Assembly: GCA_947628965.1 (NCBI GenBank)
Contig: CANRBV010000001.1
Coordinates: 41,225 to 105,224, forward strand
Reading direction: 5' to 3'
DNA from: an uncultured Bacilli bacterium
GTDB lineage: Bacteria; Bacillota_I; Bacilli_A; RF39; UBA660
DNA length: 64,000 nt
Positions 2,055 to 47,363 of the stretch are shown piece after piece. Position 1 is the stretch's first letter. Each line of letters starts with the position of its first letter. The notes beneath the pieces were generated by a model. That model did no database searches. It saw nothing but the letters and a program-made list of their open reading frames with translations, and was not told where the DNA came from. The position numbers and the translations under genes were made by a program.

Positions 2055-3488
2055 TTAATTTACATCATAAAAATTTTCCCAAGGATCTTTTCTTTTTAAT
2101 CTTTTTAAAGCCATCTCCATAGTAATTTCATCAGGATTTATTTTATCAAGTTCACTCCAACGAATGGGCATGGATACTCTAAGTTTTTTTCGTAATCGAA
2201 GTGAATATGGGGCTACACTCGTTGCACCTTTAGTATTTCTTATCCAATCAATAAAAATTTTTTCTTTTCGGTTTTCTTTTCTTATGTTGCTTGTATATTT
2301 TTCTGGCCATTTTGCTTCCATAAAATCAGCAATATTTTTGGCAAATTCTCGAAAATTTTTCCATGTTTTTAACTTTTTAGTTGGAATTACGACATGATAT
2401 CCTTTTCCTCCACTCGTTTTCAAAAAAGAAGTTAAATTTAATTCATCTAAAACACTTTTTAAATCTTTTACTCCTTCTCTTACTTTTTCTAAAGAAAGAT
2501 TTTCATCGGGATCTAAATCAAACACAAGACAATCTGGGGTATTTAAAGCATTTATTCGACTGCCCCAAACATGAAATTCAAAACTATTCATTTGTACTTC
2601 TGAAATAAGTCCAACAATATCTTTAAAATAATAATAATCTTCACGATTGCCTTTTTCGTTAGCTATACGTATCTTGCCAATTCCTCTATTTGAATTTTCC
2701 AAATGCTTTTTAAAAAATATTTCACCCTTTATTCCTTCTGGTGCTCGAATTACAGAAACAATTCTTTTTTCAATATAAGAAATCATTCTTTGCGAAACTT
2801 TTTTATAATAATTTACAATATCCATTTTTGTTACATTCGAATATATTTTTTTTGTAGGATTTGTTATAGTAATCCCCTCAACTATTCCATATTTTTTGGA
2901 ATTTTTCTTAAATTTTATTCCGTTTTCAATTTCTTTCATGGTTCTACCAGTTTTAATACTTGTATCATATTCTCCTATATTTTTATACATATATTCATTG
3001 TCCTTTTCTTTTATTAGTAGCCAATTGTCTTCTTTAAAATGCACAAGCATCCAACGCCCTTTTAAACGTTTTCCATGCAATACAAATTTTATGGAACCAT
3101 TTGTAAAATCATTTGTAAAATTTTCTAAAGGCTCCCAGTAGCCTTCATCCCAAATCATAACGGTTCCTCCTCCATATTCTTTTTTGGGAATTACTCCTTC
3201 AAAATGACGATAACTTAAAGGATGATCTTCTACATGAATTGCAAGGCGTTTTTCATTTGTATTATAAGATGGTCCCTTAGGAACAGCAAAGCTTATCAAA
3301 GTACCCTTCCATTCTAAACGTAAATCATAATGATCTTTACGAGCAAGGTGATGTTGTACGACAAAAACTAATTTTTTATGAGTTTTTGTTATTTTACCTA
3401 ATGGTTCATTTGTTTTTTTAAAATTCCTTTTTTCTTTATATTTTTTTAATTTATCCATAATAAAAAACCTCTTTAATAGTATTTTCAA
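2055..3488 (-). CDS. ligD: LigD-like NHEJ protein: 3'-phosphoesterase domain + polymerase/primase domain, no ligase domain
   Basis: N-terminal segment (VVQHHLARKDHYDLRLEW...) matches the LigD phosphoesterase domain; C-terminal about 300 aa match the LigD Pol (archaeo-eukaryotic primase-like) domain. Confidence 0.7.
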   Translation of the reverse strand: MKILLKRFFIMDKLKKYKEKRNFKKTNEPLGKITKTHKKLVFVVQHHLARKDHYDLRLEWKGTLISFAVPKGPSYNTNEKRLAIHVEDHPLSYRHFEGVIPKKEYGGGTVMIWDEGYWEPLENFTNDFTNGSIKFVLHGKRLKGRWMLVHFKEDNWLLIKEKDNEYMYKNIGEYDTSIKTGRTMKEIENGIKFKKNSKKYGIVEGITITNPTKKIYSNVTKMDIVNYYKKVSQRMISYIEKRIVSVIRAPEGIKGEIFFKKHLENSNRGIGKIRIANEKGNREDYYYFKDIVGLISEVQMNSFEFHVWGSRINALNTPDCLVFDLDPDENLSLEKVREGVKDLKSVLDELNLTSFLKTSGGKGYHVVIPTKKLKTWKNFREFAKNIADFMEAKWPEKYTSNIRKENRKEKIFIDWIRNTKGATSVAPYSLRLRKKLRVSMPIRWSELDKINPDEITMEMALKRLKRKDPWENFYDVN

Positions 3489-3509: not shown

Positions 3510-4925
3510 CTAAAAAGGTTTTTTTAATTTATATATGCAATCTCTATCCACAATGACGGCGGGATATTTTTTAAAAAATGGTGGTATTTTTTCTAAAGTA
3601 GGGGTATCTGCATCTTCATAACGATCCAGCATTAAACAATTATCTCCCGTATTTCCTCCTAATAAATTATCGGTTGTATAATAACCTAAACGAGCTAGTT
3701 CTTCTTGTAAAAACGTTTCAATTTGTTTTTGGATTTCTAAAGAATATTCTCTTACAGAGTGGGTTAAATACTTTTGAACTTCAATACCTGCTAGAATTAT
3801 GCCATTTTCATCGCGAACAAAACATTCTTCCAAATTTTTTATAATAATATATAAATTTGGACAAAGGGGATCTTTTTCATAAGACCATTTTGTTCTACAT
3901 AATTTAAAGGCATAATCTCCTATTTGGTAACAAGTGCTACAGGATCCACTGCCAATGTATTTTGTATCACTTTTTTTACTTAAAGACAAGTATTTCGAAA
4001 CAAATTTTTGTAACGTTTTACCAAGACCGTAGGCAAACTCTCTTTCAAGAATGGAATGATTTTCTTTTGATGTAGCAAAGTAACGTAAAAATTGATAAAA
4101 TTGTTCTTTTAATTCTTGACTCAATTTTTCAGTATAATGTTCATAAATATAAAGTTGATATTTCGAAGAGGTTTTAAAATAGGTATCTATATCCCTTAAA
4201 AATTCTGGTTGAGAAGATTTACTTTTTAACAAACACTCTCCTAAATCATTTTCTTTATAATTTTCTAAAATAAATTTTTTTAATTTTAAAAATGTTTTGA
4301 AATCCTTTTTTTCATAAAAATGGTAAGCAAGCAAGGAAACCTCTTCTTGTGGCATTAAAAGATTACTTTGCATTTTTTGTTTTTGCGCACTGGTTAGATA
4401 TTTTAAAATGTCTTCATAAAAGAAAGAAACTTTTGCAAAATGGTTTTCCACAAGATAATTCATAAATTGCCCTCTTATTTTTAAATCTTCATGAACAGAT
4501 AATTGTTTTAAATAGTCTTGATTTTCTATAAAAGATGCAAAAAGAAAATCGAATAAAAGAATGGGTGCTGAATTAAAATATTTTATTATTTTTGGAAGGT
4601 TGTTGATAAGATATTCTTTACCCCAAGTAGTATGATAAAGCATATTTTTTATTTTTTCAGCATCAAAAAAGTTTGGGTTTTTGGCTTTTTTTAAAGTATC
4701 TAAAAATTCTTCTTGGTATTCTTCCATGTCATAAATAATTTGTAAGCAAAAAGAAGGATAAGATTTTTTTAATTTGGGTAAAAAACCTGAAACAATTTGT
4801 TTTCTTGTCGTAGTATTTTCTATATTACGAATGACTTGTGCAAGCAAATTAAGTTCTGTATCGGATAAATGATAAATAAAAGATACATTGCCTTTTTCTA
4901 ATTCTATAAGTGGATTTAATGACAT
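3510..4925 (-). CDS. Hypothetical protein (471 aa)
   Basis: Long ORF directly downstream of the LigD-like gene with 21-nt spacing; no recognised motif. Confidence 0.6.
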   Translation of the reverse strand: MSLNPLIELEKGNVSFIYHLSDTELNLLAQVIRNIENTTTRKQIVSGFLPKLKKSYPSFCLQIIYDMEEYQEEFLDTLKKAKNPNFFDAEKIKNMLYHTTWGKEYLINNLPKIIKYFNSAPILLFDFLFASFIENQDYLKQLSVHEDLKIRGQFMNYLVENHFAKVSFFYEDILKYLTSAQKQKMQSNLLMPQEEVSLLAYHFYEKKDFKTFLKLKKFILENYKENDLGECLLKSKSSQPEFLRDIDTYFKTSSKYQLYIYEHYTEKLSQELKEQFYQFLRYFATSKENHSILEREFAYGLGKTLQKFVSKYLSLSKKSDTKYIGSGSCSTCYQIGDYAFKLCRTKWSYEKDPLCPNLYIIIKNLEECFVRDENGIILAGIEVQKYLTHSVREYSLEIQKQIETFLQEELARLGYYTTDNLLGGNTGDNCLMLDRYEDADTPTLEKIPPFFKKYPAVIVDRDCIYKLKKPF

Positions 4926-5077
4926 AGTACCACACCCTTTTTAAGTAATTGTCTGCTATTATAACCAAAATAATTTTAAAAGTAAAGATGGAATTTACTA
5001 AAAATTGGCAGGTAATTTTAACATACATATGTTTGCTTTTTCTTAAAAACTGAGTATAATAAAAATGGTGATGCCAA

Positions 5078-6292
5078 ATGGAGTTAATTGAAAAATTAAA
5101 AATTCTAGCGGATAGCGCAAAATATGATGCCTCCTGTTCTTCTAGCGGAAGCCGAAACGAAAGTAAAAATGGCATAGGAGCAACGGCCTTTAGTGGAATC
5201 TGTCACTCTTTTGCAAGTGATGGAAGATGTATTTCTCTACTCAAAATTTTAATGACCAATAGTTGTATTTTTGATTGTAAATACTGTTTAAATCGTAGAA
5301 GCAATTCGATTAAGAGGGCCTTGTTTACTCCCGAGGAAATTTGTGAAATTACTTTAAATTTTTATCGACGCAATTATATAGAAGGTTTATTTTTAAGTTC
5401 AGGTATTCTAAAAAGTCCTGATTATACGATGGAACTTTTAATTAAAACGATTACTCTATTACGTAAAAAATATCATTTTGGTGGCTATATTCATTGCAAG
5501 GCTATACCTGGAGCAAGTGAAAAATTATTAAAGGAATTAGGTCGTTTGGTCGATCGCTTAAGTGCAAACATAGAGCTTCCTACAGAAAATGGTTTAAAGC
5601 TTTTGGCTCCTAATAAGGAAAGTAAAAAGATAGATAAAATTATGCAATATGTAAAAGAAAATCAAAGCAAACGATTTGTTCCAGCAGGACAAAGTACCCA
5701 AATGATTATTGGAGCAACGAAAGAAACAGATTTAGAAATCATGAATAAAAGTGCTGCAATGTATAAAAATTATCATTTAAAACGGGTCTTTTATTCAGCT
5801 TATATTGGAGTCAATCATGATTCTTTACTCCCTACGTTAGAAAATCCTCCCTTAAAACGGGAAAATCGTCTTTATCAAGCGGATTGGTTACTGCGCTATT
5901 ATCATTTTAAAGTAAATGATTTATTAAATGAAAATAATCCGAATTTCAACATTTTGGTTGACCCCAAGTGTGACTGGGCGCTTCGTCATTTAGATGAGTT
6001 TCCAAAAGAAATCAACGAGTGCTCCTATCAAGATTTATTAAAAATTCCTGGCATTGGCGTTACAAGTGCTAAACGTATTTTTTCTTCTCGTAAGGTATTT
6101 ACTCTTACTTTTGATGACTTAAAAAAAATGGGTGTTGTATTAAAAAGAAGCAAGTACTTTATAACTTGTAATCATAAATATTTATTAGACCCAAGTATGT
6201 ATCAAAAAAAGTTTATTGAATCCAATTTAATTTTAGAAGAAAAAACGCCTTTAAAAAAAGAGTATGAACAATTGAGGTTATTTAATGAATAA
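5078..6292 (+). CDS. Radical SAM protein, putative DNA modification/repair family
   Basis: CxxxCxxC radical-SAM cluster (CIFDCKYC); N-terminal Cys-rich block and overall layout typical of the radical-SAM DNA-repair family that pairs with DUF4130. Confidence 0.75.
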   Translation: MELIEKLKILADSAKYDASCSSSGSRNESKNGIGATAFSGICHSFASDGRCISLLKILMTNSCIFDCKYCLNRRSNSIKRALFTPEEICEITLNFYRRNYIEGLFLSSGILKSPDYTMELLIKTITLLRKKYHFGGYIHCKAIPGASEKLLKELGRLVDRLSANIELPTENGLKLLAPNKESKKIDKIMQYVKENQSKRFVPAGQSTQMIIGATKETDLEIMNKSAAMYKNYHLKRVFYSAYIGVNHDSLLPTLENPPLKRENRLYQADWLLRYYHFKVNDLLNENNPNFNILVDPKCDWALRHLDEFPKEINECSYQDLLKIPGIGVTSAKRIFSSRKVFTLTFDDLKKMGVVLKRSKYFITCNHKYLLDPSMYQKKFIESNLILEEKTPLKKEYEQLRLFNE

Positions 6293-7028
6293 CGTTTATA
6301 TTTATAATGATACATTTTTAAGTCTTTTAAATCTTATAGATTATTTAATTTTACATCATATAAAGCCTTATCAAATTAAAAATAGCCAATATCAAAGCAC
6401 TTTACTGGATAATGTTGTCCATCTTGCTATCGAAGAAAAAGATATTGCAGGTAAAATTGTTAGGGAAATGGGTTCTTATTCTTTACAACAAATGTATTAT
6501 GTTTTTCTATCGAATGTGGAAGCTAAAGAACTTATCTTATATTATTTTTACTTAAATGGGTTAAAATACTATAGGGACATTTTTAAATATCGCAATTTAA
6601 AATGCGTGGATAAAGTTTTAAAGATTGCAAAACTGGTTCAAAACGAGTGCCATAAATACAAAGGTTTTGTTCGATTTAAAGAGTTTAATAATCACGTTTT
6701 ATACGCTGAAATAGAACCTAGTAGTGATTGTTTAGAAATTCTTTCTATTCATTTTAAAAGGCGTTTAAAAAATGAGTATTGGATTATAAAAGATGTAAGA
6801 AGAAATCTATTAAGTCTGTATGATAAAAAGGAATTTCATATCGTAGATGGCACTACTTTTTCATTAGATAATATTTTGGAAAGCCGTGAAGAAGAAAAAA
6901 TAGAAAATTTATGGAAAGCTTTTTATCAAACGATTGGAATTAAGGAACGAAAGAACGATACTTGCCGTAGGAATTTTATGCCTAAAAAATATTGGAAATA
7001 TATGTTAGAGGTGAAAAGTGAATTATGA
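6285..7028 (+). CDS. DUF4130-type probable DNA metabolism protein (radical-SAM partner)
   Basis: 8-nt overlap with the upstream radical-SAM gene; size and conserved pairing. Confidence 0.6.
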   Translation: MNNVYIYNDTFLSLLNLIDYLILHHIKPYQIKNSQYQSTLLDNVVHLAIEEKDIAGKIVREMGSYSLQQMYYVFLSNVEAKELILYYFYLNGLKYYRDIFKYRNLKCVDKVLKIAKLVQNECHKYKGFVRFKEFNNHVLYAEIEPSSDCLEILSIHFKRRLKNEYWIIKDVRRNLLSLYDKKEFHIVDGTTFSLDNILESREEEKIENLWKAFYQTIGIKERKNDTCRRNFMPKKYWKYMLEVKSEL

Positions 7029-8539
7029 AAAAAGTAATAATGAAAGAAGAATTACAAGAAAAAATGCAAGAAAGTATTCATCTTTTATGTGGTATTGTAA
7101 AAGAGACTTTAGGGCCAAACGGAAAAAATGTTTTAATTGATCACTCCTTATTTTCTCCTTTTATTACAAATGATGGAGCAACAATTGCTAGAAATATTGA
7201 GTCGGAAGATGCTATTATCAATACGATATTAGAAATTGCCAAAGAGTCTTCTTTAAAAACCGATAGTAAAGTTGGGGATGGAACGACTACAACGCTAGTG
7301 TTACTAGAAAGTATTTTTGATCATGGGTTGGAACTTATAAAAAAGGGGATGCCTCCTATTCTTTTTAAAAAAAATTTAACTAAAAGTTTAGAAAAGGTTT
7401 TAAATTCTTTAGAAAAAGAAAAACATCTTCCTAAAAATAAGGAATATGAAAGCTTAAGTATTATTGCTGCCAACGAAGAGGAGCTTGGGAAATTTATAAA
7501 TCACGTTTATCAAAAAATTAAAACGAAAAATGGAATTGAAATTGTAGAAACGGACCAAAGCATCTTAAGTGTTCAATATGAAAATGGATATCAATTTCCC
7601 ATAGAACTTGGTAGTCCACTATTTTTAAAAGAGCAAGAGAAAATTTTTTTAGAAAATCCTGTATTTCTTTTTGTTGAAGAACAAAACTCTTCTTTAGAAG
7701 ATTATAGTATGTATTTAAATGCTGCTATGAAAAATAAATGGGATGTTGTTTTTATTGCTAAAAATTTTAATGATTCCTTTATCCAAGAATGTCTTTATTT
7801 AAATGATACGCAAACCATAAATTGCTTTTTGCTTAAAATTGGAGAGTATGGAATAAAAGAATCAATTATTTGGAAAGATATAAAATTTATAACGAGTCAA
7901 AAAAAGAATTGTAAGGGAATTACGTTAACAAAAGAAAAGGCCATTTTAAAATTTACAAATTCTTTAAAAACACAAGAATATTTAAAAACAATTGAGGAAG
8001 AACTAAAGAAAATAAAAGATGAATTTGATGAAGATTTTTTTAAAAAACGTATGGCCATGTTTTTAAATGGTTTGGCAACTATTGTTTTGGGTGCCCCAAC
8101 AAAAATTGAATGTCACGAGAAAAAAATGCGTCTTATCGACGCATTGTGTGCTTTAGAAAGTGCTAAAGACGGAGTTGTTACAGGTGGAGGTATTACGTTT
8201 TTAAAAATTGCAAATGAATTAGACATTAAAAATGAAACGGACCAAATTTTACAAGAAGCTTTGAAAATACCTTTTAAACAAATTCTTTTAAATTCGGGAC
8301 TTTCTTATGAAAAAATAAAAAAGACGATTGAAAAGGAAGAATATCATGCTGTTTTTAATGTTTCTAAAGATCGTTTTGAAAAAGTAAGCGACACACAAGT
8401 AATTGATTCTTATAACGTTTTAAAACAAACTTTAGAAAACGCTTGCTCCATTGCCATGATGTTACTTACAACCAGTAGTTTAGTAATCAATGAGCAAGAA
8501 AATAATTTAGGAAAAATAAACGATTATAATGAACTATAA
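7025..8539 (+). CDS. Divergent chaperonin (Cpn60/TCP-1 family), closer to group II/III than GroEL
   Basis: LGPNGKNVLID...ITNDGATIARNIE and GDGTTTTLVL ATP-binding motifs; VVTGGGITFL near the C-terminus; 504 aa; 4-nt overlap with the DUF4130 gene. Confidence 0.65.
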   Translation: MKKVIMKEELQEKMQESIHLLCGIVKETLGPNGKNVLIDHSLFSPFITNDGATIARNIESEDAIINTILEIAKESSLKTDSKVGDGTTTTLVLLESIFDHGLELIKKGMPPILFKKNLTKSLEKVLNSLEKEKHLPKNKEYESLSIIAANEEELGKFINHVYQKIKTKNGIEIVETDQSILSVQYENGYQFPIELGSPLFLKEQEKIFLENPVFLFVEEQNSSLEDYSMYLNAAMKNKWDVVFIAKNFNDSFIQECLYLNDTQTINCFLLKIGEYGIKESIIWKDIKFITSQKKNCKGITLTKEKAILKFTNSLKTQEYLKTIEEELKKIKDEFDEDFFKKRMAMFLNGLATIVLGAPTKIECHEKKMRLIDALCALESAKDGVVTGGGITFLKIANELDIKNETDQILQEALKIPFKQILLNSGLSYEKIKKTIEKEEYHAVFNVSKDRFEKVSDTQVIDSYNVLKQTLENACSIAMMLLTTSSLVINEQENNLGKINDYNEL

Positions 8540-8771
8540 ATAGACACAATTTTAATTAAAAATGTTTTATAGTTTTTTGCTTCTTTATACTTTTTTTATA
8601 TTCTTGTTTCTAAAAGATTCGTTTATTCCCAATACTTAATATTTACAATAATTCAGCTATCTTTAATTTAACAGACACTGTCTGGAATTTTGGATATTTA
8701 GCGTTTATCAAAATAATTTTTTAAAAAAACATATCTATTGGAATCATAGAGAAATATTTATCCAAAAAAAA

Positions 8772-8800
8772 GAATACCTGCGCGTATTCCTTTCTCTAGA
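8772..8800 (+). terminator. Putative terminator after the chaperonin-like operon
   Basis: gaatac-ctgcgc-gtattc hairpin followed by a T-rich tract. Confidence 0.3.
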
Positions 8801-8968
8801 TTGTTTTTTTAAATACCTGGTCGCATTTAAAAACAATTTATTAAAACATAACTTTTATTATGTCTTAATCATAAATGGGGCAAAATTCCAATAGGCATAA
8901 AACCTTTTTTATTTGCTCTCTTTTAATAACTTTATTTTATTAAAATTCCTTTTATTTGTCAATAAATT

Positions 8969-10663
<1,695 letters not shown>

Positions 10664-10780
10664 TTATATTAAAAATACTACTATATTTTTTTTAATATTT
10701 TCTCCTCTCACTACTTATTATATGCAAAAATATTTTTTTTTAATGATTAGCCCCAAAAAACTTAAAAAATAGAGAAGATA

Positions 10781-11371
10781 TTATCTTTTTAATAAATTAT
10801 AAAAACTATTTGGCTTTAAATTTAACATTTCTATTGCTTCTTTACTTTTTATTTTTTTATTTTTCCATAATTCTATAACATAATCATAATTACTTGGCTT
10901 TTCTATTTTTGGGCGACCAAATCTTATTCCTTTATTTTTTGCATTAGAAATTCCTTCCTTTTGCCTTTGCTTAATAAATGACCTTTCTTGCTCTGCGACA
11001 TAACTTAATATTTGCAATACTAAATCACTAATAAATGTGCCTAATAAATCTTTATTATTCCTTGTATCTAATAATGGCATATCTAAAACAACAATATCTG
11101 CTTTTATATTTTTTGTAATTTCTTTCCATTCTTCAATTATTGCATTATAATTTCTTCCTAATCTATCAATACTTTTAATTACTAATAAATCATTTTCCCT
11201 TAATATATTTTTTACTATGCTATATTGCTTTCTTTCAAAATCTTTTCCACTTTGCTTATCAATATAAATATCTCTCTCTTCTATGCCATATTCTTTAAAT
11301 GCTAAGATTTGCCTTTCTTCATTTTGCTCTTTGCTACTAACTCTACCATAGCCAAATACTTTATTTTTCAT
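10781..11371 (-). CDS. Small serine recombinase (resolvase/invertase) with C-terminal HTH
   Basis: GYGRVSSKEQNEERQ catalytic serine motif; about 190 aa. Confidence 0.85.
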   Translation of the reverse strand: MKNKVFGYGRVSSKEQNEERQILAFKEYGIEERDIYIDKQSGKDFERKQYSIVKNILRENDLLVIKSIDRLGRNYNAIIEEWKEITKNIKADIVVLDMPLLDTRNNKDLLGTFISDLVLQILSYVAEQERSFIKQRQKEGISNAKNKGIRFGRPKIEKPSNYDYVIELWKNKKIKSKEAIEMLNLKPNSFYNLLKR

Positions 11372-11378
11372 TTTATAC

Positions 11379-11639
11379 CTACTTTGCTAAAAAATTGCTT
11401 ATTTCTCTAAAGATTCTATCTATAATAACATCTTCAAATGTTCCTACTAATTCTACTATGATATTATTATCTTTTAATTCACCAATGAAGTTAGAACATG
11501 CTATTAAAAATGGAAATTCTTTTTTTCTTTCTTTTTCTTCTTCCAATGTATCCAAAATATTATCAACATAACCATCACAGACAAATGATAATATTTTTCT
11601 TAATTCATTTTCTCTCATTTTATGGCACCTCCTTACCAT
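11379..11639 (-). CDS. Hypothetical protein (86 aa)
   Basis: ORF 8 nt downstream of the resolvase gene's start, same strand. Confidence 0.45.
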   Translation of the reverse strand: MVRRCHKMRENELRKILSFVCDGYVDNILDTLEEEKERKKEFPFLIACSNFIGELKDNNIIVELVGTFEDVIIDRIFREISNFLAK

Positions 11640-11795
11640 AAAATATTATAGAAACATTCGTTCTATTTCTCAACCAATTTATTTAAAAATCTCAAAAAAA
11701 TTTATAAACATTTAAAAAATCAATTTTAAACTTTTATAAACATAAAAAAAGACTTAATCTTAATAAGAATTAAATCTTTATAAAATTACACTTTT

Positions 11796-12293
11796 TTAAA
11801 CACTATATAAATTCTTTATTTCTTCGCTTGGCAATACTAATGTAAAATCAATATCATAAATATTTATTAACTCATTTAATTTTTTAACAATTTCTTTTGC
11901 TATATCATTATGCTTATAACCATGTACCCCTGTCCCTATGCTAACACTAATAATACTTTTATAGCCATTATCTTTTGCTGATATAAATATTTTTTCATAA
12001 CTATTTAATAAATCTAATAGGGGAGAATTGCTTTCATAATATTTTGGAGAATATATATGCAAAATATCAATACCTAAATCAAAACCAGGACTATATCTAA
12101 TTTCATTAACTCTCATATTTTCTTTATAATTCTTTTTACAATAATCTTCTAACAATTCTTTATTTGCCTTTTTATATATTGCCCCACAAACACCACTACC
12201 ACATATCATATATTTATTATTACTATTAACTATTAAATCTTTATTTTCTAAATAATCAAATATATTGCCACTTATAACATTTAACTTACCCAT
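11796..12293 (-). CDS. Macro-domain protein (ADP-ribose binding / ADP-ribosyl hydrolase-like)
   Basis: ISGNIF...IVNSNN...GSGVCGAIYKKAG pattern corresponds to the macro-domain Gly-rich ADP-ribose pocket. Confidence 0.65.
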   Translation of the reverse strand: MGKLNVISGNIFDYLENKDLIVNSNNKYMICGSGVCGAIYKKANKELLEDYCKKNYKENMRVNEIRYSPGFDLGIDILHIYSPKYYESNSPLLDLLNSYEKIFISAKDNGYKSIISVSIGTGVHGYKHNDIAKEIVKKLNELINIYDIDFTLVLPSEEIKNLYSV

Positions 12294-12310
12294 TAGACCA
12301 CCTAAAATAT

Positions 12311-13216
12311 TTATTCAAATTTATTTAATATTTGCCCATTTCTATAATAATCTTTATCAGCATATCTAATGCATATTACATTATTATTGCTATCTAAATA
12401 AATAATAATATTATCAATATCATTACTTTTTATTCTATAACCTTTTGACCCATAACCCTCAAAACCATCTAAACTCTCGCTATCTGCTTTAATACTATCA
12501 AATTTATCAATACCTACTTTATTTAAAATATTATATATATTATCAGCTTGTTCTTCACTTATATTCATTTCGCTTTTTATTTTATTACTATAATCAATAT
12601 TTTTACCACTATTTAAAACAGCAATAACTAATATTATTATAACAAATATTATAATTCCTAAAAATACATAACCTAAAACATTTAGCCTTTTATATGCCTT
12701 TTCATTTATAATAATCTTACAATTAGGACATTTAATATCGCTAATACTTAATTCTTTGCCACACTTAGGACATTTTAAATCGCCTTTTGATAAATTAACA
12801 ACACTATTTAAACATTTAACAAACTTACTCCCAGAAAATGCACCATTTACATAAACACTAATAACTTTATCTTCGCCATTTTCTTTATAATTAACAATTA
12901 TATATTGCACATCTTCCTTTATTTGCTTTTTGCCCGTGCCACTTAAACCACCTAAAACTAAACCAACATTACCAAACAATAAACCACCAGCAACACCTCT
13001 GCCAATAGCACTTTTATTTTTTTCTACTATATGCTTATCACTAATAACCCCAGCATTAACAATATCTTTTAATGCTATTTCCTTAAATACTTGCCCTCTA
13101 ATATCGCAATATTTTAAATTATAATTAGTAATTTTTAATATGCAATTCGCATCTTCTCTAATTTCTAATCCCTCATAATGCTTTGCATTAACTTTTAATA
13201 TTTCTTTTTCTTTCAT
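12311..13216 (-). CDS. Hypothetical zinc-ribbon membrane protein
   Basis: Gly-rich segment; CPKCG...CPNCK zinc ribbon; single TM helix; C-terminal domain of about 90 aa. Confidence 0.55.
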   Translation of the reverse strand: MKEKEILKVNAKHYEGLEIREDANCILKITNYNLKYCDIRGQVFKEIALKDIVNAGVISDKHIVEKNKSAIGRGVAGGLLFGNVGLVLGGLSGTGKKQIKEDVQYIIVNYKENGEDKVISVYVNGAFSGSKFVKCLNSVVNLSKGDLKCPKCGKELSISDIKCPNCKIIINEKAYKRLNVLGYVFLGIIIFVIIILVIAVLNSGKNIDYSNKIKSEMNISEEQADNIYNILNKVGIDKFDSIKADSESLDGFEGYGSKGYRIKSNDIDNIIIYLDSNNNVICIRYADKDYYRNGQILNKFE

Positions 13217-13343
13217 TTTCTACACCTTTCTTTATAACTTTTCTATATCAATGCTTTACTTAGCAAATAGCCAATTTTTTGATAAATAATATATAACTAT
13301 ATTAAAATTATTAAATCTTTTAAAAACGAGCAATAAATAGAAA

Positions 13344-14135
13344 TTATAATTCACTCAATACTTTATTTATAAACTTTTCTTTATTTCTGCCAATACTAAT
13401 ATTATCTAAATAAAAATTCCCTGAACCTATTAACCAAAATATTTTATCTACTTTATAAGGACTTTCATTGACAGCATTAGCCATTTCTATAACTGCCTTA
13501 TATACAGAATAATCATTATTTTTACACAAATTAAAAGCAAAAAATATATCTTTAATATGAACATCTGCTTTTGGATATTCTTTAAAGCCTAATTCTTTTA
13601 AAAAATCACAAGCGAGAGGAAATCCTAAACCAATTATTTCTTTTTCTAATAACATAGGCAGAGCAGCAGAGGAAAGAGAATTATAACTAAACATTTTGAC
13701 AAACTTATCAAAATCTTTTTCACTTTTAAATTTTTCTACAAATTCACAAGCAGATATAACTGACTTAGCATATAATCTCCATAGATTATTTTTACTTTCT
13801 TTATTTTTAATTACAAAATTATTATCGAATTCTTTTAATAAACTATCAGCATTATAATTACTTAATATTTTTTTACTATCATAATGACATAGAATATTAT
13901 TGAATGCATCTTTTCTTTCTGCTTTTTCTAAGCCAATAACATTAGATGACATTTGCCTATTTTGCAATGATAATAATAATCTATATAAAATATCATTTTT
14001 GCTTTTAAAATTCTTTTTTACATTAAAATATATATTTATATCTTTTATTTCTCTAGGACATAATTCCATTAAAAACTTATAAGCACTATTATATATTTTC
14101 TTTAATTTAATATTCCTTGCTTCTATATCACTCAT
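13344..14135 (-). CDS. Hypothetical protein (about 263 aa; start taken at MSDIEARN with GAGGT RBS)
   Basis: ORF; internal ATG preceded by gaggt at 8-nt spacing. Confidence 0.5.
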   Translation of the reverse strand: MSDIEARNIKLKKIYNSAYKFLMELCPREIKDINIYFNVKKNFKSKNDILYRLLLSLQNRQMSSNVIGLEKAERKDAFNNILCHYDSKKILSNYNADSLLKEFDNNFVIKNKESKNNLWRLYAKSVISACEFVEKFKSEKDFDKFVKMFSYNSLSSAALPMLLEKEIIGLGFPLACDFLKELGFKEYPKADVHIKDIFFAFNLCKNNDYSVYKAVIEMANAVNESPYKVDKIFWLIGSGNFYLDNISIGRNKEKFINKVLSEL

Positions 14136-14257
14136 TTTAAGAACCTCGCTAAGAACATTATAACATAAAAATATATAATTTAACACATATTGATATAACT
14201 AATATTGCTATCACTGATTTCTAATAAATTTAAAATTATATATGAGAGGAGGACTAT

Positions 14258-14587
14258 ATGGAAAACAATTTAAAGAAAATAAGAAACAGCAAAAACTTAT
14301 TACAGACTAAAGTTGCTATGGATTTAAACATAACCCAAGAGACTATATCTTCTTATGAAACTGGTCGCGTTTTTCCAAGTTCTGATATGCTTATTAAAAT
14401 TGCTGATTATTATAATACATCTATTGATTATTTACTTTGCAGAACTAAATATGATATGCCTATTGATAATATTAAACCAAATAATATCTCAGATAATGAT
14501 TTTATTCTTTTAAATAAGATAAATAAATTATCTCCTATCAATAAATCAAAAGTTGAAAGTTACATTGATGGATTAAATGATAGATGA
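14258..14587 (+). CDS. XRE-family (Cro/CI-type) HTH transcriptional regulator
   Basis: LLQTKVAMDLNITQETISSYETG helix-turn-helix; GGAGG RBS upstream. Confidence 0.8.
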   Translation: MENNLKKIRNSKNLLQTKVAMDLNITQETISSYETGRVFPSSDMLIKIADYYNTSIDYLLCRTKYDMPIDNIKPNNISDNDFILLNKINKLSPINKSKVESYIDGLNDR

Positions 14588-14855
14588 TTATATATATATG
14601 AATTTAACTATTAAATCGCCTTAATTCCTTTAAAAATATAAAATTATAATTCTAATTCATATAAAGAATTCTTTATAATTTTATATTTTTTTTATATGAT
14701 TTTTATATTTCATTTTTTCTCTTTTTTATATAACTTTCTTAATTATTTTATATTATTTTTATATTATTCTTATAATACTTTTAATAATATAATAACTATA
14801 ACTATATAAAATAATTATATATTATATGATAGAACTTTTACGATTATTATTTTAT
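14588..14855. repeat. Very A/T-rich intergenic region with short direct repeats (ttttatattatt x2, tataat-type repeats); possible replication origin or regulatory region
   Basis: Direct repeats read in sequence between the convergent XRE and Rep genes. Confidence 0.3.
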
Positions 14856-15635
14856 CTAAATGCTTATATCTTCTTCAAATATTCTATTTCTTCTACTAAG
14901 ATTTTCCTGTACTTTATTATCTTCTAACTTTAATTCATAATTTTCTTTAATCTTGCTTATTCTTATTTTTCTCATAAACTCATTAGAATTTTTTTTATCT
15001 TGCTCTTTCGTTATTTCAAAATAGAAATTCTTTATTTCATAATATTTTTGCTCTAATGCTAATCTTCCTTTTTTACCATTTATGACAAATTGACTTATAT
15101 ATTTTACATAAGCATAATATAAATCTTTTAAACTATATCCCTTTGGAATTACATTTTCACTACAATAATTACAAAATAATACTTCTTCGCCCTGATTTAT
15201 AAAATATTCTGCTTTATTTATATTTGCATTTTTCTTATATATTTTTAGATTAGCATAATTTATTTTATCTCTTTTAATTTTATTCTTATACCAATTTTTA
15301 TCTATATAATTTTTTATTAAATCTCTAAACGCATAACTTGGAATCGATACCAATAAAATATGAATATGCCAATCTACATTTATAATATCTTCATTATCAA
15401 AACCTTTTAATACTTTTTTTGGGCGACCAACTTTTCCATTTTTTTCATAACAAACCCTCGTATTATTGCCTTTAACATTACTAATACAAATCATTGCCTC
15501 TGCTTCCCAATTTCTTTTTTTACAATTATATCTTATAAATTCAATTAAACTTTTAGCATGCTTTTTTGCTTCTTCCTTACTTTTAAATTTTATATTCAAA
15601 TCGAAAGTTGATAAACCTAATTTTTTCTTTGACAT
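14856..15635 (-). CDS. HUH-endonuclease superfamily rolling-circle replication initiator-like protein
   Basis: DWHIHILLV = HUH motif (H-hydrophobic-H-hydrophobic x3); downstream Tyr-containing segment; lies in the mobile element. Confidence 0.55.
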   Translation of the reverse strand: MSKKKLGLSTFDLNIKFKSKEEAKKHAKSLIEFIRYNCKKRNWEAEAMICISNVKGNNTRVCYEKNGKVGRPKKVLKGFDNEDIINVDWHIHILLVSIPSYAFRDLIKNYIDKNWYKNKIKRDKINYANLKIYKKNANINKAEYFINQGEEVLFCNYCSENVIPKGYSLKDLYYAYVKYISQFVINGKKGRLALEQKYYEIKNFYFEITKEQDKKNSNEFMRKIRISKIKENYELKLEDNKVQENLSRRNRIFEEDISI

Positions 15636-15640
15636 AATAA

Positions 15641-15931
15641 TTACCCCATATTCCTTATAGCATTTATCAATTTTTTTAACATGGGAGCATTTATTACGAT
15701 ATTTTTATTATATAAATACAAATTTAGATTATCATAGCATAGCAATACTAAATATATATCATTAACCTTAATAATAAATCTATGAGGCTCTATAAAATTA
15801 ACATTTGTTTTTTCAACTTTAAATATAAAACCATTTTTAAATTCTAATTTTACATTATTAAATACACATATATTATTTAACTTATTATAAATATTCTTAT
15901 TTAATGGCATAACTTCTTTACTAAATTTCAT
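15641..15931 (-). CDS. Hypothetical protein (96 aa)
   Basis: ORF immediately downstream of Rep. Confidence 0.4.
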   Translation of the reverse strand: MKFSKEVMPLNKNIYNKLNNICVFNNVKLEFKNGFIFKVEKTNVNFIEPHRFIIKVNDIYLVLLCYDNLNLYLYNKNIVINAPMLKKLINAIRNMG

Positions 15932-15956
15932 ACTATCAAACCTTTCTTTTTAATAA

Positions 15957-15990
15957 CAAAAAAACTAGGATTTCCTATTGAAATTCCTAG
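15957..15990 (-). terminator. Rho-independent terminator downstream of tRNA-His
   Basis: ctagga..tcctag hairpin followed by a 7-T run on the minus strand. Confidence 0.5.
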
Positions 15991-16034
15991 CCTTTGCTAT
16001 AATCAAAAACCTTAAAGGTTTGATTTCCCAAATA

Positions 16035-16111
16035 TGGGGCGAAATGTGGGGATCGAACCCACGCATACCGGAGCCACAATCCGGCGTGTTAACCACTTCA
16101 CCAATTCCGCC
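16035..16111 (-). tRNA. tRNA-His: tRNA-His (anticodon GUG) with encoded G-1 and 3' CCA
   Basis: Folded by hand: 8-bp acceptor stem including G-1:C73; anticodon loop TTGTGGC (GTG); T-arm GTGGG-TTCGATC-CCCAC; CCA encoded. Confidence 0.9.
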
Positions 16112-16397: not shown

Positions 16398-16431
16398 AAA
16401 AAGAATAGTTTAAAAATGACTATTCTTTTTC
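16397..16431. terminator. Bidirectional hairpin terminator overlapping the stop codon of the minus-strand oxidoreductase gene
   Basis: 9-bp stem aagaatagt/actattctt with 9-nt loop, flanked by A-run/T-run. Confidence 0.5.
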
Positions 16432-17502
16432 AATGTATTCGTTTAAAGGTTTTACACGATATTTTAATTCTGGCATTTCGCTTGTTGGAACAAAACCACT
16501 GCGGGCATTGATAACATCGGGAATACGATTTACAATATCCGCACAAGTAAGTTCAACAGTAGCAGGTCTATTAATTATCATCGTGGTATTAGGTTCACCT
16601 TCGATTGTCCAGATATTAGCATCGTAATCATCTTCGCTATATACTTTACCGATGCATTCTGCTTCAATAGTTATTCCTTCTGTAGTTGTTGCAGTAACAA
16701 CAGCACTCATTCCTGTTGCGTCTCCTGCTTTTATAGTCATATCAAGAGTACTTGAATATATATCCTCCGTATGAGTTTGAGGTACACACTCTTGGCTAAT
16801 CTCTTTTAAATGTAAATCTAATTTATCAATTAACCATCCTGCAACATTCCACATATAGCTTGGAGAATATTCTCTACTATCAATTATTTTTTGTCTTTCT
16901 TCCTTACTCATACGATCATTTGTAGCAACGGTTTTATCGAATTCTTCTAAGGAAAGTCCAGTGCCATGCGCTTTAGCTAGGGCAAGTCCATAATCTTCAA
17001 CATTATAAGAACTACTTCCTTTAATTTTGGTAATCTTATGAGTTGAAGCAGCTAAATTACTAATTAGATTTCCCCAGAAAATATCTTGGTAACCACAACC
17101 CGTAATCGTTACTCCTCCTGCTTTGGCAAGACTATCCAATTCTTTATACAAAGTAGGATTGGAATTACTTGCATAAAAAGCTTCTTCACAAGTGGTTACA
17201 ACATTCACATGACATTTAGCACAAGTGCGCAAAACATCTCCTAAATCATTTAATAAGCTCATTGTTGTAACAATGGCAATATCAGGTTTTATTTCACTCA
17301 ATCTTGTTTCTAAAGAAGAAATATCTTCTACTAAAACATTTTTCTTACCACATTCCATAACTTCTCCGATGTCTCTACCGATTATATCTTTTGCTACATC
17401 AAAAGCAAGAACAATTTCTCCTCCTTTTTCATAAACATAGCGCATTGTATATTTGCTCATCTTTCCACAACCTATTTGAGCAACTTTTACTTTTCTTTCC
17501 AT
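16420..17502 (-). CDS. NAD(P)-dependent DapB-like oxidoreductase (2,4-diaminopentanoate dehydrogenase-like)
   Basis: N-terminal VAQIGCGKMSK dinucleotide-binding motif; about 360 aa, typical of the DapB-like ornithine-fermentation dehydrogenases. Confidence 0.55.
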   Translation of the reverse strand: MERKVKVAQIGCGKMSKYTMRYVYEKGGEIVLAFDVAKDIIGRDIGEVMECGKKNVLVEDISSLETRLSEIKPDIAIVTTMSLLNDLGDVLRTCAKCHVNVVTTCEEAFYASNSNPTLYKELDSLAKAGGVTITGCGYQDIFWGNLISNLAASTHKITKIKGSSSYNVEDYGLALAKAHGTGLSLEEFDKTVATNDRMSKEERQKIIDSREYSPSYMWNVAGWLIDKLDLHLKEISQECVPQTHTEDIYSSTLDMTIKAGDATGMSAVVTATTTEGITIEAECIGKVYSEDDYDANIWTIEGEPNTTMIINRPATVELTCADIVNRIPDVINARSGFVPTSEMPELKYRVKPLNEYIEKE

Positions 17503-46799: not shown

Positions 46800-47363
46800 T
46801 TAAGATAGCTGTTTAAAAATATATATATTTTGCAACGAATCATCTTTTTTATCACAAGTAATTAACGTTAAATTAGTTTGATTTTTTTCTCTTCGGATAG
46901 AAATTTGACCATCTTTTTTTTCACTATAAATATAAAGAAGTTGATAGGTATATTGAATATCATTAAAGTAAACATACGCAATATCGCCTTTTTCTAATTT
47001 ATAAAGGTTTTTAAAATACGCTATTTTGCTTGTTCCACTGTGACTAGCTAATATAAGATTTCCGCATTTAACATCTGGCATGGTTGAAGTTTCAATAACT
47101 TGAATATTTTGATTTACATTATTTTTAGGATTTCCATAAGCATAAAAACCTTTTTTTAGTTTGATTTTAGGGATTTCTATTACTGCAATATAATTATTTT
47201 TAGTTAGAACTGTTTTGTCTGTAGAAAGAAAATTGTTTATTCTTTTTTCTTCTTTTTGGTCTTCAAAATAATACGTAAAAGAAATAGCCAAAAATAGAAA
47301 AAGAAATAAAAGACACAAAACCTTGATAAAAAGCTTTTTTCTTTTCACCATTTTTTTCTCCAA
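46800..47363 (-). CDS. Sortase-family transpeptidase
   Basis: N-terminal TM anchor; LILASH (His) and TLITCD (TLxTC catalytic Cys) motifs. Confidence 0.8.
   Translation of the reverse strand: MEKKMVKRKKLFIKVLCLLFLFLFLAISFTYYFEDQKEEKRINNFLSTDKTVLTKNNYIAVIEIPKIKLKKGFYAYGNPKNNVNQNIQVIETSTMPDVKCGNLILASHSGTSKIAYFKNLYKLEKGDIAYVYFNDIQYTYQLLYIYSEKKDGQISIRREKNQTNLTLITCDKKDDSLQNIYIFKQLS

What the first reader, a model, noticed from the sequence alone, without database searches (positions are those of the whole stretch)
7025..8539. Bacterial group-II/III-like chaperonin paralog with no adjacent co-chaperonin
- The sequence is closer to thermosome/CCT-type signatures (ITNDG.TI, GDGTTT..VL, built-in lid expected) than to GroEL (ITKDGVSVA).
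- It is shorter (504 aa) than either.
- No GroES-like ORF flanks it.
- Group II/III chaperonins are rare in bacteria; a new occurrence with a specific operon context is worth documenting.
Basis: inference. Interest (0 to 1): 0.55.

Follow-up and report, generated by a model that had tools for sequence, protein, structure and literature searches.

The report
GroEL paralog inside SOS repair operon
This gene is not an archaeal-type chaperonin but a diverged, GroES-less copy of the bacterial GroEL folding machine; in hundreds of uncultured gut bacteria it is always joined in one probably damage-inducible operon with an uncharacterised radical-SAM DNA-repair enzyme pair, which suggests a private chaperone for that repair system.

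Summary
The ORF at 7025-8539 (+) is real, intact (504 aa) and under purifying selection. The motifs, the short length and the absence of groES are all confirmed. The group II/III reading is wrong. GroEL HMMs match full length at 264-281 bits against about 65 bits for thermosome/CCT, which match the N-terminal segment only. PDB sequence and Foldseek searches return only group I chaperonins. The apical domain is shorter than GroEL's, with no lid insertion.

What is really there is the third gene of a translationally coupled operon: radical-SAM TIGR03916 (5078-6292), then DUF4130/TIGR03915 (6285-7028), then the GroEL-like gene. A LexA/Cheo-box-like palindrome lies over the promoter. This triad is present in every one of 87 related loci examined. 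269 species-level genomes, all uncultured gut Bacilli MAGs, carry a relative of the chaperonin. The triad persists down to 32-35% identity, including members that still pass GroEL subfamily cut-offs.

Outside this lineage the rSAM-DUF4130 pair occurs without a chaperonin. ATPase and hinge residues are invariant, whereas the GGM tail, the R197-E386 bridge and the inter-ring contacts are lost.

Best reading: a GroES-independent GroEL paralog dedicated to the repair module. No such link was found in the searched literature. Whether these genomes also keep housekeeping groESL is unresolved.

The parts
5022..5035 (.). Palindromic operator CATACATATGTTTG, a LexA/Cheo-box-like motif with family consensus C-R-A-A-C-A-W-W-T-G-T-T-T-G, lying over the -35 region of the operon promoter
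   Evidence: Found with at least 8 of 10 specified positions in 70 of 72 distinct upstream regions, always starting 55-59 nt before the rSAM ATG. Only one other strong hit occurs in 1.1 Mb of related loci. That LexA binds it is inferred from its resemblance to the B. subtilis LexA box (own knowledge) and from published SOS control of the homologous operon (PMC8565304).
5055..5060 (+). TATAAT -10 hexamer, followed by the GGTGA ribosome-binding site at 5067-5071
   Evidence: Read from the sequence. TATAAT-like hexamers and GGTGA sit at the same relative positions in nearly all related upstream regions. The generic promoter scan did not list this promoter, because the -35 region is occupied by the operator and fails its hexamer criterion.
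5078..6292 (+). [quoted passage not shown]
   Evidence: NCBIfam TIGR03916 scores 612.6 bits against a cut-off of 343.5. Pfam finds Radical_SAM plus HHH. It is 70-89% identical across the lineage.
6285..7028 (+). Gene 2: DUF4130 / TIGR03915 putative DNA repair protein, 247 aa; it overlaps gene 1 by 8 nt
   Evidence: Pfam DUF4130 scores 147 bits. TIGR03915 scores 202.5 bits against a cut-off of 112.25. AlphaFold 3 predicts a confident heterodimer of the homologous pair in a Lachnospiraceae genome (bioRxiv 10.64898/2026.08.19.745780).
7025..8539 (+). Gene 3 (the finding): diverged group I chaperonin (GroEL) paralog, 504 aa; its ATG overlaps the gene 2 stop (ATGA)
   Evidence: Supported. The gene 2 stop overlaps the gene 3 start in 84 of 85 loci, as ATGA in 57 of them.
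8760..8801 (.). G+C-rich hairpin with flanking T/A runs, a candidate bidirectional terminator between the operon and the convergent recombinase gene
   Evidence: The terminator scan lists it on the - strand. Its role for the + strand operon is inferred.

Best explanation
The gene encodes a GroEL-derived (group I) chaperonin paralog that has become the third, translationally coupled component of a radical-SAM (TIGR03916) / DUF4130 (TIGR03915) putative DNA-repair module. The three genes are transcribed from one promoter whose -35 region is covered by a LexA-type operator, so they are probably made together after DNA damage. The protein keeps the full GroEL ATPase and hinge machinery and the N- and C-terminal strands that build a ring. 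It has lost the features tied to GroES-dependent, double-ring, general-purpose folding. It most likely works as a GroES-independent, ATP-driven, client-dedicated chaperone that folds, assembles or stabilises the Fe-S radical-SAM enzyme and/or its DUF4130 partner as they are synthesised. Shown: group I affinity, operon linkage and its conservation, residue conservation and losses, purifying selection, the conserved operator. Inferred: LexA as the regulator, ring formation, GroES independence, and the identity of the client.
For: Group I identity:
- GroEL HMMs score 264-281 bits over the full length.
- PDB GroEL chains score ~185 bits.
- The AF2 model (pLDDT 88.7) matches GroEL subunits at TM 0.84-0.86, and all top-50 matches are group I.

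Operon linkage:
- DUF4130 abuts the gene in 87/87 loci, and rSAM precedes it wherever upstream sequence exists, 81/87.
- These three are the only universally conserved genes across 82 loci.
- Stop/start overlap occurs in 84/85 loci.
- The linkage persists in members at 32-40% identity: P0174, P0175, P0187 and P0246 follow an overlapping DUF4130 gene, and P0150 follows an overlapping upstream ORF truncated by the contig end.
- P0175 still passes GroEL subfamily cut-offs at 461 and 458 bits. This gives a graded series from near-canonical GroEL to the window form.

Lineage-specific addition:
- Pusillibacter and Parabacteroides have only rSAM + TIGR03915.

Functional ATPase:
- The equivalents of GroEL D52, D87-G-T-T-T, D398, G414/G416, N479 and D495, and hinge glycines G192/G375, are invariant in 31/31 sequences; hinge G410 is Gly in 30/31.

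Loss of GroES/double-ring features:
- No groES in the window or loci.
- No GGM tail.
- R197/E386 is replaced.
- Inter-ring contact positions are unconserved.
- L234 and V264 are Ser in most members.

Selection:
- dN/dS is 0.07-0.26, and the apical domain is still constrained at 0.18.

Regulation:
- The operator is present in 70/72 promoters at a fixed position.
- The homologous COG4277 operon is SOS-regulated in other phyla (PMC8565304).

Precedent:
- GroE binds and stabilises the SOS polymerase subunit UmuC (PMC6590174).
Against: - No direct evidence of a chaperone-client relation. Co-operonic, stoichiometric coupling fits a structural subunit at least as well as a catalytic chaperone.
- A GroEL ring without a lid cannot encapsulate a client, so the canonical folding mechanism cannot simply be assumed.
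- The rSAM-DUF4130 pair functions without such a partner in most bacteria.
- No lexA or recA gene was found in the fetched loci to confirm that the palindrome is a LexA site. The few other genes carrying the motif are not typical SOS genes.
- Oligomeric state was not tested.
- Whether the same genomes carry housekeeping groESL is unknown (one search failed).
Confidence: 0.55

Rival explanations
1. The GroEL-derived protein is a working subunit of the repair machine rather than a folding helper. It would be an ATP-driven ring or scaffold that holds the rSAM-DUF4130 heterodimer, for instance to shield its oxygen-labile cluster, gate access to DNA, or remodel or extract damaged DNA-protein complexes.
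For: - Invariant translational coupling to DUF4130 and universal co-occurrence are typical of subunits of one complex.
- The apical domain and DUF4130 are both the fast-evolving parts: apical 0.38 mean pairwise identity against 0.58 equatorial, and DUF4130 49-72% identity against rSAM 70-89%.
- A conserved, disordered C-terminal motif K-x-N-[E/D]-Y-x-E-[L/I] replaces the GGM tail and looks like a docking peptide.
Against: - There is no known precedent for a chaperonin as a stoichiometric DNA-repair subunit.
- The two-gene module works without it elsewhere.
- No added interaction domain is seen in the in-clade rSAM or DUF4130 proteins, whose lengths are similar to those outside the clade.
- No complex prediction could be run here.
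Confidence: 0.22
2. It is simply the organism's only (housekeeping) chaperonin, which happens to sit downstream of the repair genes in a lineage that lost canonical groESL, as many Mollicutes-like Bacilli have.
For: - No groES or groEL in the 64-kb window or in 1.1 Mb of related loci.
- Submitters label many host MAGs Tenericutes or Mycoplasma sp..
- Less derived clade members still pass GroEL subfamily cut-offs.
- Presence of canonical groESL in the same genomes could not be tested.
Against: - Housekeeping GroEL is among the most conserved bacterial proteins, whereas this one evolves faster than its rSAM neighbour: 38-64% against 70-89% identity, and dN/dS 2-3 times higher.
- It lacks a GroES partner, the GGM tail, the R197-E386 bridge and conserved ring-ring contacts.
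- It is overlapped with DUF4130 and sits behind a repressor-type operator, an odd arrangement for an essential constitutive gene.
- NCBI annotates members as hypothetical proteins.
Confidence: 0.12
3. One reading: a group II/III (thermosome-like, built-in lid) chaperonin in a bacterium.
For: The TNDGATI motif (Asn at GroEL K51) is typical of thermosome/CCT (own knowledge) and is present. There is no co-chaperonin gene.
Against: - Thermosome/CCT HMMs score 37-65 bits on the N-terminal ~130 residues only, against cut-offs of 400-800.
- The group III structure 5x9u scores 66 bits against GroEL at 185.
- Foldseek top-50 matches are all group I. In BFVD the viral group II-like proteins score E ~1e-15 against ~1e-34 for viral GroELs.
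- The apical domain has a deletion, not a lid insertion.
- K51N is common in other group I representatives.
Confidence: 0.01
4. A phage- or mobile-element-derived GroEL-like gene brought in with the adjacent serine-recombinase island.
For: A large serine recombinase and a resolvase lie immediately downstream (8969-11371) in a low-GC stretch. Phage-encoded co-chaperonin-independent GroELs exist (PDB 6tmt, 6hdd).
Against: - The island is absent from the 80 other genomes (one weak partial recombinase match, 26% identity in L047), while the triad is always present.
- No family member occurs in IMG/VR; the best hits are 24-31% identity ordinary GroELs.
- Phage chaperonins score 54-66 bits and 16-22% identity in BFVD.
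- PADLOC finds no hit.
Confidence: 0.02

Closest known systems
Canonical GroEL/GroES (group I chaperonin; TIGR02348)
   Same: Three-domain fold, full-length homology (27% identity to E. coli GroEL), invariant ATP-binding and hydrolysis residues and hinge glycines, and the KxxG[FY]G apical motif.
   Different: - Below the curated GroEL cut-offs: 264 against 582 bits for the equivalog model.
- No groES partner.
- No GGM tail; it ends in N-E-Y-x-E-L instead.
- R197-E386 bridge lost.
- Ring-ring contacts unconserved.
- Deletions of 18 and 7 residues.
- Embedded in a DNA-repair operon behind a LexA-like box rather than the usual heat-shock-controlled groESL operon (own knowledge).
Cyanobacterial monocistronic GroEL2 (PMC5381637)
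   Same: A GroEL paralog encoded without groES. It is neofunctionalised, is reported not to interact with co-chaperonins, and has its own regulation.
   Different: GroEL2 is monocistronic and linked to light or photosynthesis stress. The present family is translationally coupled to specific enzymes and belongs to a different lineage.
Chlamydial variant GroEL2/GroEL3 (NF038370, NF038369)
   Same: Diverged extra GroEL copies lacking an adjacent groES.
   Different: Not members: 70 and 49 bits against cut-offs of 600. The context is different.
Phage-encoded co-chaperonin-independent GroEL-like proteins (phage EL gp146, PDB 6tmt; OBP, 6hdd)
   Same: Group I-derived and thought to work without GroES.
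   Different: Only 54-66 bits of similarity. The present family is chromosomal and absent from IMG/VR.
Group III chaperonin of Carboxydothermus hydrogenoformans (PDB 5x9u/5x9v)
   Same: A bacterial chaperonin without a separate co-chaperonin.
   Different: That protein is thermosome-like with a built-in lid. Similarity here is 66 bits over two partial stretches, and no lid is present.
SOS-regulated radical-SAM (COG4277/TIGR03916) module with DUF4130 and/or a UDG partner
   Same: Genes 1 and 2 are clear members of this uncharacterised putative repair system. The literature reports LexA control of the COG1573-COG4277 operon in Verrucomicrobia, Alphaproteobacteria and Bacteroidetes (PMC8565304). 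PMC3765255 links DUF4130 to SplB-like rSAM and UDG proteins.
   Different: No published description of the module includes a chaperonin. Here a GroEL paralog is an obligatory third gene.
GroE dependence of UmuC/Pol V in E. coli (Donnelly and Walker 1992, cited in PMC6590174)
   Same: A group I chaperonin is needed to stabilise an SOS-induced DNA-damage-tolerance protein.
   Different: In E. coli the general housekeeping GroESL does this in trans. Here a dedicated paralog is hard-wired into the client's operon.

Membership tests
Group II chaperonin (thermosome/CCT) | Full-length match to thermosome/CCT family models above their cut-offs | tested here: not met
   The best match is thermosome_beta at 65 bits on residues 17-149 (cut-off 400). 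CCT subunit models score 37-64 bits.
Group II chaperonin (thermosome/CCT) | Helical protrusion (built-in lid) inserted in the apical domain | tested here: not met
   The apical domain is about 163 residues against 186 in GroEL, with an 18-residue deletion and no insertion. The AF2 secondary structure shows only GroEL-type elements.
Group II chaperonin (thermosome/CCT) | Nearest solved structures are thermosomes/CCT | tested here: not met
   All 50 best Foldseek PDB hits are GroEL/Hsp60.
Group III chaperonin (Carboxydothermus type) | Close sequence relation to the type protein (PDB 5x9u) | tested here: not met
   66 bits in two partial stretches, against ~185 bits full length for GroEL.
Group III chaperonin (Carboxydothermus type) | Location in a dnaK/grpE/dnaJ heat-shock operon (own knowledge of Techtmann and Robb 2010) | tested here: not met
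   The neighbours are rSAM, DUF4130, LigD-like and recombinase genes. The Pfam-scanned ORFs of the window include no Hsp70, GrpE or DnaJ.
Canonical GroEL (group I, TIGR02348 equivalog) | Score above the curated GroEL cut-offs | tested here: not met
   TIGR02348 scores 263.8 bits against 582.1. The best subfamily model, NF009487, scores 281.2 against 352. The less derived clade member P0175 passes NF000592 (461 against 397) and NF009487 (458 against 352).
Canonical GroEL (group I, TIGR02348 equivalog) | Conserved ATP-binding and hydrolysis residues and hinge glycines | tested here: met
   The equivalents of T30, G32, P33, D52, G53, D87, G88, T89, T90, D398, G414, G416, N479, D495, G192 and G375 are invariant in 31/31 sequences; G410 is Gly in 30/31. 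K51 is Asn throughout.
Canonical GroEL (group I, TIGR02348 equivalog) | Adjacent groES co-chaperonin gene | tested here: not met
   No GroES-like ORF in the window at E up to 10, nor in 87 loci at E up to 1e-5.
Canonical GroEL (group I, TIGR02348 equivalog) | Hydrophobic GroES/substrate-binding residues of apical helices H and I (Y199, Y203, F204, L234, L237, L259, V263, V264) | tested here: inconclusive
   Six positions remain hydrophobic in most members. L234 is Ser in 23/31 and V264 is Ser in 24/31.
Canonical GroEL (group I, TIGR02348 equivalog) | C-terminal Gly-Gly-Met repeat tail | tested here: not met
   The tail is ...NNLGKINDYNEL. The clade shares K-x-N-[E/D]-Y-x-E-[L/I] at the C-terminus.
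Canonical GroEL (group I, TIGR02348 equivalog) | Conserved inter-ring contacts (K105, A109, E434, R452, E461, S463, V464) and the R197-E386 allosteric bridge | tested here: not met
   These positions vary even within the family. The region of E434 carries a 7-residue deletion. R197 becomes T/I/S/V and E386 becomes K.
Canonical GroEL (group I, TIGR02348 equivalog) | Heptameric ring / tetradecamer assembly | not testable with these tools
   Only monomer prediction was available. The N- and C-terminal beta strands that build the ring are conserved.
rSAM TIGR03916 / TIGR03915 (DUF4130) putative DNA repair module | Adjacent genes matching both family models above cut-off | tested here: met
   TIGR03916 scores 612.6 against 343.5, and TIGR03915 scores 202.5 against 112.25. 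The two genes overlap by 8 nt.
rSAM TIGR03916 / TIGR03915 (DUF4130) putative DNA repair module | SOS (LexA) regulation, as reported for the homologous operon in other phyla | tested here: inconclusive
   A conserved Cheo-box-like palindrome is present in 70/72 promoters. No lexA or recA gene with the same box was available to confirm it.
Known anti-phage defence systems (PADLOC) | Match of any operon protein to a defence-system model | tested here: not met
   No hits for the three operon proteins or six neighbouring ORFs.

The most novel reading that the evidence does not exclude
A chaperonin has been repurposed as an integral, ATP-driven component of a DNA-repair machine. The GroEL-derived ring would dock the radical-SAM/DUF4130 heterodimer, possibly through its conserved C-terminal N-E-Y-x-E-L tail and its fast-evolving apical domain. 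It would use ATP-driven domain movements to shield the Fe-S enzyme or to deliver it to, or remodel, damaged DNA or DNA-protein adducts. That would be a non-folding job for a group I chaperonin.
Probability: 0.2. Interest if true: 0.85.

Novelty: new variant of a known kind. Interest (0 to 1): 0.6.

Why it matters
- Specialised GroEL paralogs are known, but their clients are usually unknown. Here the genome names the likely client: a translationally coupled radical-SAM/DUF4130 pair.
- This gives a tractable system for asking how a group I chaperonin works without GroES and how client specificity evolves. A graded series from near-canonical to strongly derived members is available.
- It adds a new, testable handle on the widespread but uncharacterised SOS-linked rSAM-DUF4130 repair module.
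- The family is currently annotated as 'hypothetical protein' in public MAGs, so it is invisible to annotation-based surveys.
- If the same genomes lack groESL, it would also bear on chaperonin loss and replacement in reduced-genome Bacilli.

Tried and rejected
1. **Same-genome groESL.** I tried to find the lineage's housekeeping GroEL by querying with P0184, the most canonical near hit, and looking for hits on the same long contigs or WGS projects. P0184 proved an orphan nearest to Bacteroidota GroELs, so the question stays open.
2. **LexA confirmation.** I looked for lexA or recA genes in the window and in more than 90 fetched loci to confirm the operator as a LexA box. None was found.
3. 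**Other genes with the motif.** I scanned 1.1 Mb of loci with a weight matrix. Apart from the triad promoter there were only a few weaker sites, upstream of MgsA/RarA, a Bro-N protein and housekeeping genes. This is not informative.
4. **Defence system.** PADLOC found nothing.
5. **Phage origin.** No family member in IMG/VR, and BFVD similarity is low.
6. **Island boundaries.** A search for att-like direct repeats around the recombinase island gave only AT-rich chance matches.
7. **Literature.** TIGR03916 returned 0 papers. 'GroEL paralog' plus 'radical SAM' returned 0. RF39 plus GroEL returned one irrelevant paper.
8. **Phylogeny.** A full maximum-likelihood tree with group II/III references was not possible because no reference sequences were retrievable. 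Curated HMM scores, PDB sequence and structure searches and a neighbour-joining tree of group I representatives served instead.
10. **Promoter scan.** The generic promoter scan does not list the operon promoter, because its -35 region is replaced by the operator.
Full report
**Observation.** The ORF at 7025-8539 (+) is real. It starts with ATG, encodes 504 aa and has no interruptions. It is 27% identical to E. coli GroEL over 521 columns. No other GroEL-like or GroES-like sequence occurs anywhere in the 64-kb window. The window has about 27% G+C.

**Which chaperonin group.** The group II/III reading fails every test I could run.
- NCBIfam GroEL models align residues 2-494 end to end at 264-281 bits. 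Thermosome and CCT models reach 37-65 bits, and only on residues ~17-150, the shared equatorial ATP-binding segment.
- Against all PDB sequences, GroELs give ~185 bits over the full length. The Carboxydothermus group III chaperonin (5x9u) gives 66 bits in two pieces, thermosomes/CCT give 45-65 bits, and phage chaperonins give 54-66 bits.
- An AlphaFold2 model built on a 31-sequence family alignment (pLDDT 88.7, pTM 0.81) has only group I chaperonins among its 50 best Foldseek PDB hits. TM-scores are 0.84-0.86 to GroES-bound cis-ring subunits and about 0.60 to apo GroEL.
- In BFVD, viral GroELs score E ~1e-34 and viral thermosome/CCT-like proteins ~1e-15.
- There is no lid. Relative to GroEL the apical domain carries an 18-residue deletion (GroEL ~300-317) rather than an insertion.
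- The 'ITNDG' motif (Asn at GroEL K51) also occurs in many otherwise GroEL-like representatives, so it is not diagnostic of group II.

The protein is equally not an ordinary GroEL. It falls below every curated GroEL cut-off, and NCBI annotates family members as 'hypothetical protein'.

**What is actually there: an operon.**
- The gene's ATG overlaps (ATGA) the stop of a DUF4130/TIGR03915 gene (6285-7028).
- That gene overlaps by 8 nt a radical-SAM/HhH gene, TIGR03916 (5078-6292), which scores 612.6 bits against a cut-off of 343.5.
- This pair is a widespread but uncharacterised putative DNA repair or modification module. Earlier work links DUF4130 to SplB-like radical-SAM and UDG proteins (PMC3765255). 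A recent AF3 study predicts a confident rSAM-DUF4130 heterodimer (bioRxiv 10.64898/2026.08.19.745780).
- Neither those papers nor further literature searches mention a chaperonin partner.

**Conservation of the linkage.**
- A scan of one genome per species found relatives in 269 genomes. All are uncultured gut MAGs from rabbit, mouse and human, labelled Bacilli, Tenericutes, Mycoplasma sp. or Erysipelotrichaceae. The closest, at 98% identity, is a rabbit-gut Bacilli MAG.
- In all 87 loci examined, DUF4130 lies directly upstream. The rSAM gene precedes it in the 81 loci where upstream sequence exists; the other 6 are cut by contig ends.
- ORF clustering across 82 non-redundant loci shows that only these three genes are universal (82, 79 and 75 loci). 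The next most frequent neighbour is a LigD-like PE+Pol repair gene, in 25 loci.
- The DUF4130 stop overlaps the chaperonin start in 84 of 85 loci, as ATGA in 57.
- An exhaustive HMMER search of 1.84 billion representatives shows the family grading from 455 to ~250 bits before ordinary GroELs appear at ~200 bits.
- Context look-ups of the most distant family-like proteins found the same arrangement each time. P0174 (35% identity), P0175 (40%), P0187 (32%) and P0246 (34%) follow an overlapping DUF4130 gene. P0150 (37%) follows an overlapping upstream ORF that the contig end truncates.
- P0175 still scores 461 bits against a GroEL subfamily model, above its cut-off. It and P0246 lack the apical deletion.
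- The window protein is therefore a derived member of a broad clade of operon-embedded GroEL paralogs with a graded series of divergence.
- Outside the lineage, the rSAM protein (50-54% identity) and TIGR03915 occur as a two-gene unit with no chaperonin, for example in Pusillibacter and Parabacteroides. The chaperonin is a lineage-specific addition.

**Regulation.**
- 70 of 72 distinct upstream regions carry C-R-A-A-C-A-W-W-T-G-T-T-T-G, starting 55-59 nt before the rSAM ATG. It lies over the -35 region of a TATAAT promoter followed by a GGTGA ribosome-binding site. In the window the sequence is CATACATATGTTTG at 5022-5035.
- At a strict threshold only one other site occurs in 1.1 Mb of loci.
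- The motif matches 12 of 14 positions of the B. subtilis LexA (Cheo) box CGAACATATGTTCG (own knowledge), with a symmetric G-to-A and C-to-T change.
- SOS control of the homologous COG4277-containing operon is reported in Verrucomicrobia, Alphaproteobacteria and Bacteroidetes (PMC8565304).
- I could not confirm the regulator. No lexA or recA gene lies in the fetched loci, and the few other motif-bearing genes are uninformative. SOS control is a well-supported inference, not a demonstration.

**What the protein keeps and what it has lost** (alignment to E. coli GroEL).
- Kept: all ATP-binding and catalytic residues, namely D52, D87-G-T-T-T, D398, G414/G416, N479 and D495. Hinge glycines G192 and G375 are invariant and G410 nearly so. 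The terminal beta strands that build the ring and the apical KxxG[FY]G motif are also kept.
- Lost or changed:
  - the GGM tail, replaced by a disordered tail ending in the conserved motif K-x-N-[E/D]-Y-x-E-[L/I] (Tyr at -4 in 52 of 80 distinct tails, Glu at -2 in 52 of 80, a terminal L/I/V/F/M in 66 of 80);
  - the R197-E386 inter-subunit bridge;
  - the ring-ring contact residues, which vary within the family, with a 7-residue deletion at GroEL 428-434;
  - two GroES-groove residues, L234 and V264, which are Ser in most members.
- Rates of change: the apical domain is the least conserved, at 0.38 mean pairwise identity against 0.58 for the equatorial domain. All domains are nevertheless under purifying selection, with pooled dN/dS of 0.12, 0.18 and 0.18. 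Whole-gene dN/dS is 0.07-0.26, similar to DUF4130 and 2-3 times that of the rSAM gene.

**Interpretation.**
- The most economical reading is a GroES-independent, ATP-driven GroEL paralog dedicated to the rSAM-DUF4130 module and produced with it, probably after DNA damage. It would assist folding, assembly or stabilisation of the Fe-S enzyme complex.
- Two precedents support this. E. coli GroE binds and stabilises the SOS protein UmuC (PMC6590174). Cyanobacterial monocistronic GroEL2 is a neofunctionalised paralog that does not bind co-chaperonins (PMC5381637).
- From general knowledge, TIM-barrel-type enzymes are over-represented among obligate GroEL clients. This fits but was not tested here.
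- The main rival is that the ring is a working subunit of the repair complex rather than a folding helper. Strict stoichiometric coupling, the docking-peptide-like tail and the co-variable apical domain and DUF4130 fit this reading at least as well.
- A third rival is that it is the lineage's only chaperonin. I could not exclude this, because same-genome groESL could not be checked. Its rapid evolution, its lost GroES features and its operator-controlled, overlapped position argue against it.
- Phage or mobile-element origin is disfavoured. The downstream recombinase island is strain-specific, the family is absent from IMG/VR, and PADLOC finds nothing.

**Verdict.** The finding is a new variant of a known kind: a client-linked, co-chaperonin-less group I chaperonin paralog, widespread in uncultured gut Bacilli and unnamed in public annotation.

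Noticed in passing
window 8969-16110: A strain-specific, low-GC (0.20-0.24) island lies immediately downstream of the chaperonin gene. It carries a large serine recombinase (8969-10663, -), a resolvase (10781-11371, -), a Macro-domain protein (11796-12293, -), a Zn-ribbon protein (12311-13216, -), an HTH_3 regulator (14258-14587, +) and several ORFs without family hits. It ends at tRNA-His (16035-16110, -). It is absent from 80 related genomes. In 7 of those, the homologue of the window gene at 16420-17502 sits 2-7 kb after the triad. No convincing att repeats were found.
   Followed up: partly
window 2055-3488 (-): A LigD-like protein with 3'-phosphoesterase and primase-polymerase domains but no ligase domain. 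A homologue lies near the triad in 25-27 of the related loci, so a second repair gene is loosely associated. In the near-identical strain L008 (triad 98-99% identical) this gene is only 78% identical, which suggests allelic replacement.
   Followed up: partly
window 3510-4925 (-): A 471-aa ORF with no Pfam, NCBIfam or PADLOC hit. It is transcribed divergently from the rSAM operon, so the LexA-like box lies in the shared 152-bp intergenic region. Homologues occur in only 3 related loci.
   Followed up: partly
window 4000-8600 versus the rest: The three-gene operon is essentially the only + strand gene block in a window otherwise encoded almost wholly on the - strand. GC skew flips to positive only across 4-8 kb. 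It may therefore be head-on to replication in this strain. Orientation relative to neighbours differs in other genomes.
   Followed up: no
window 8494-8536 (protein residues 491-504) and homologues: The disordered C-terminal tail (pLDDT below 50) ends in a clade-wide motif K-x-N-[E/D]-Y-x-E-[L/I]-COOH in place of GroEL's GGM repeats. It is a possible docking peptide.
   Followed up: partly
L171 1075-2721; L177 1214-1636: Distant triad-bearing genomes have sporulation or germination genes next to the operon (GPR peptidase A25, SpoIIP, a SleB-like Hydrolase_2 protein). At least part of this 'Tenericutes/Mycoplasma'-labelled lineage therefore looks like spore-forming Firmicutes.
   Followed up: no
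L052, L056, L057, L077 at about 5998-6027: In one sub-lineage the promoter carries two tandem copies of the LexA-like palindrome, 16 nt apart.
   Followed up: no
window 23637-28808 (-) and 47345-49393 (-): Large surface-protein genes: a 1723-aa Peptidase_M60 (enhancin-like) plus fn3 protein, and a 682-aa SpaA-repeat pilin-like protein with a thioester domain. These are consistent with a mucosa-associated Gram-positive gut organism.
   Followed up: no
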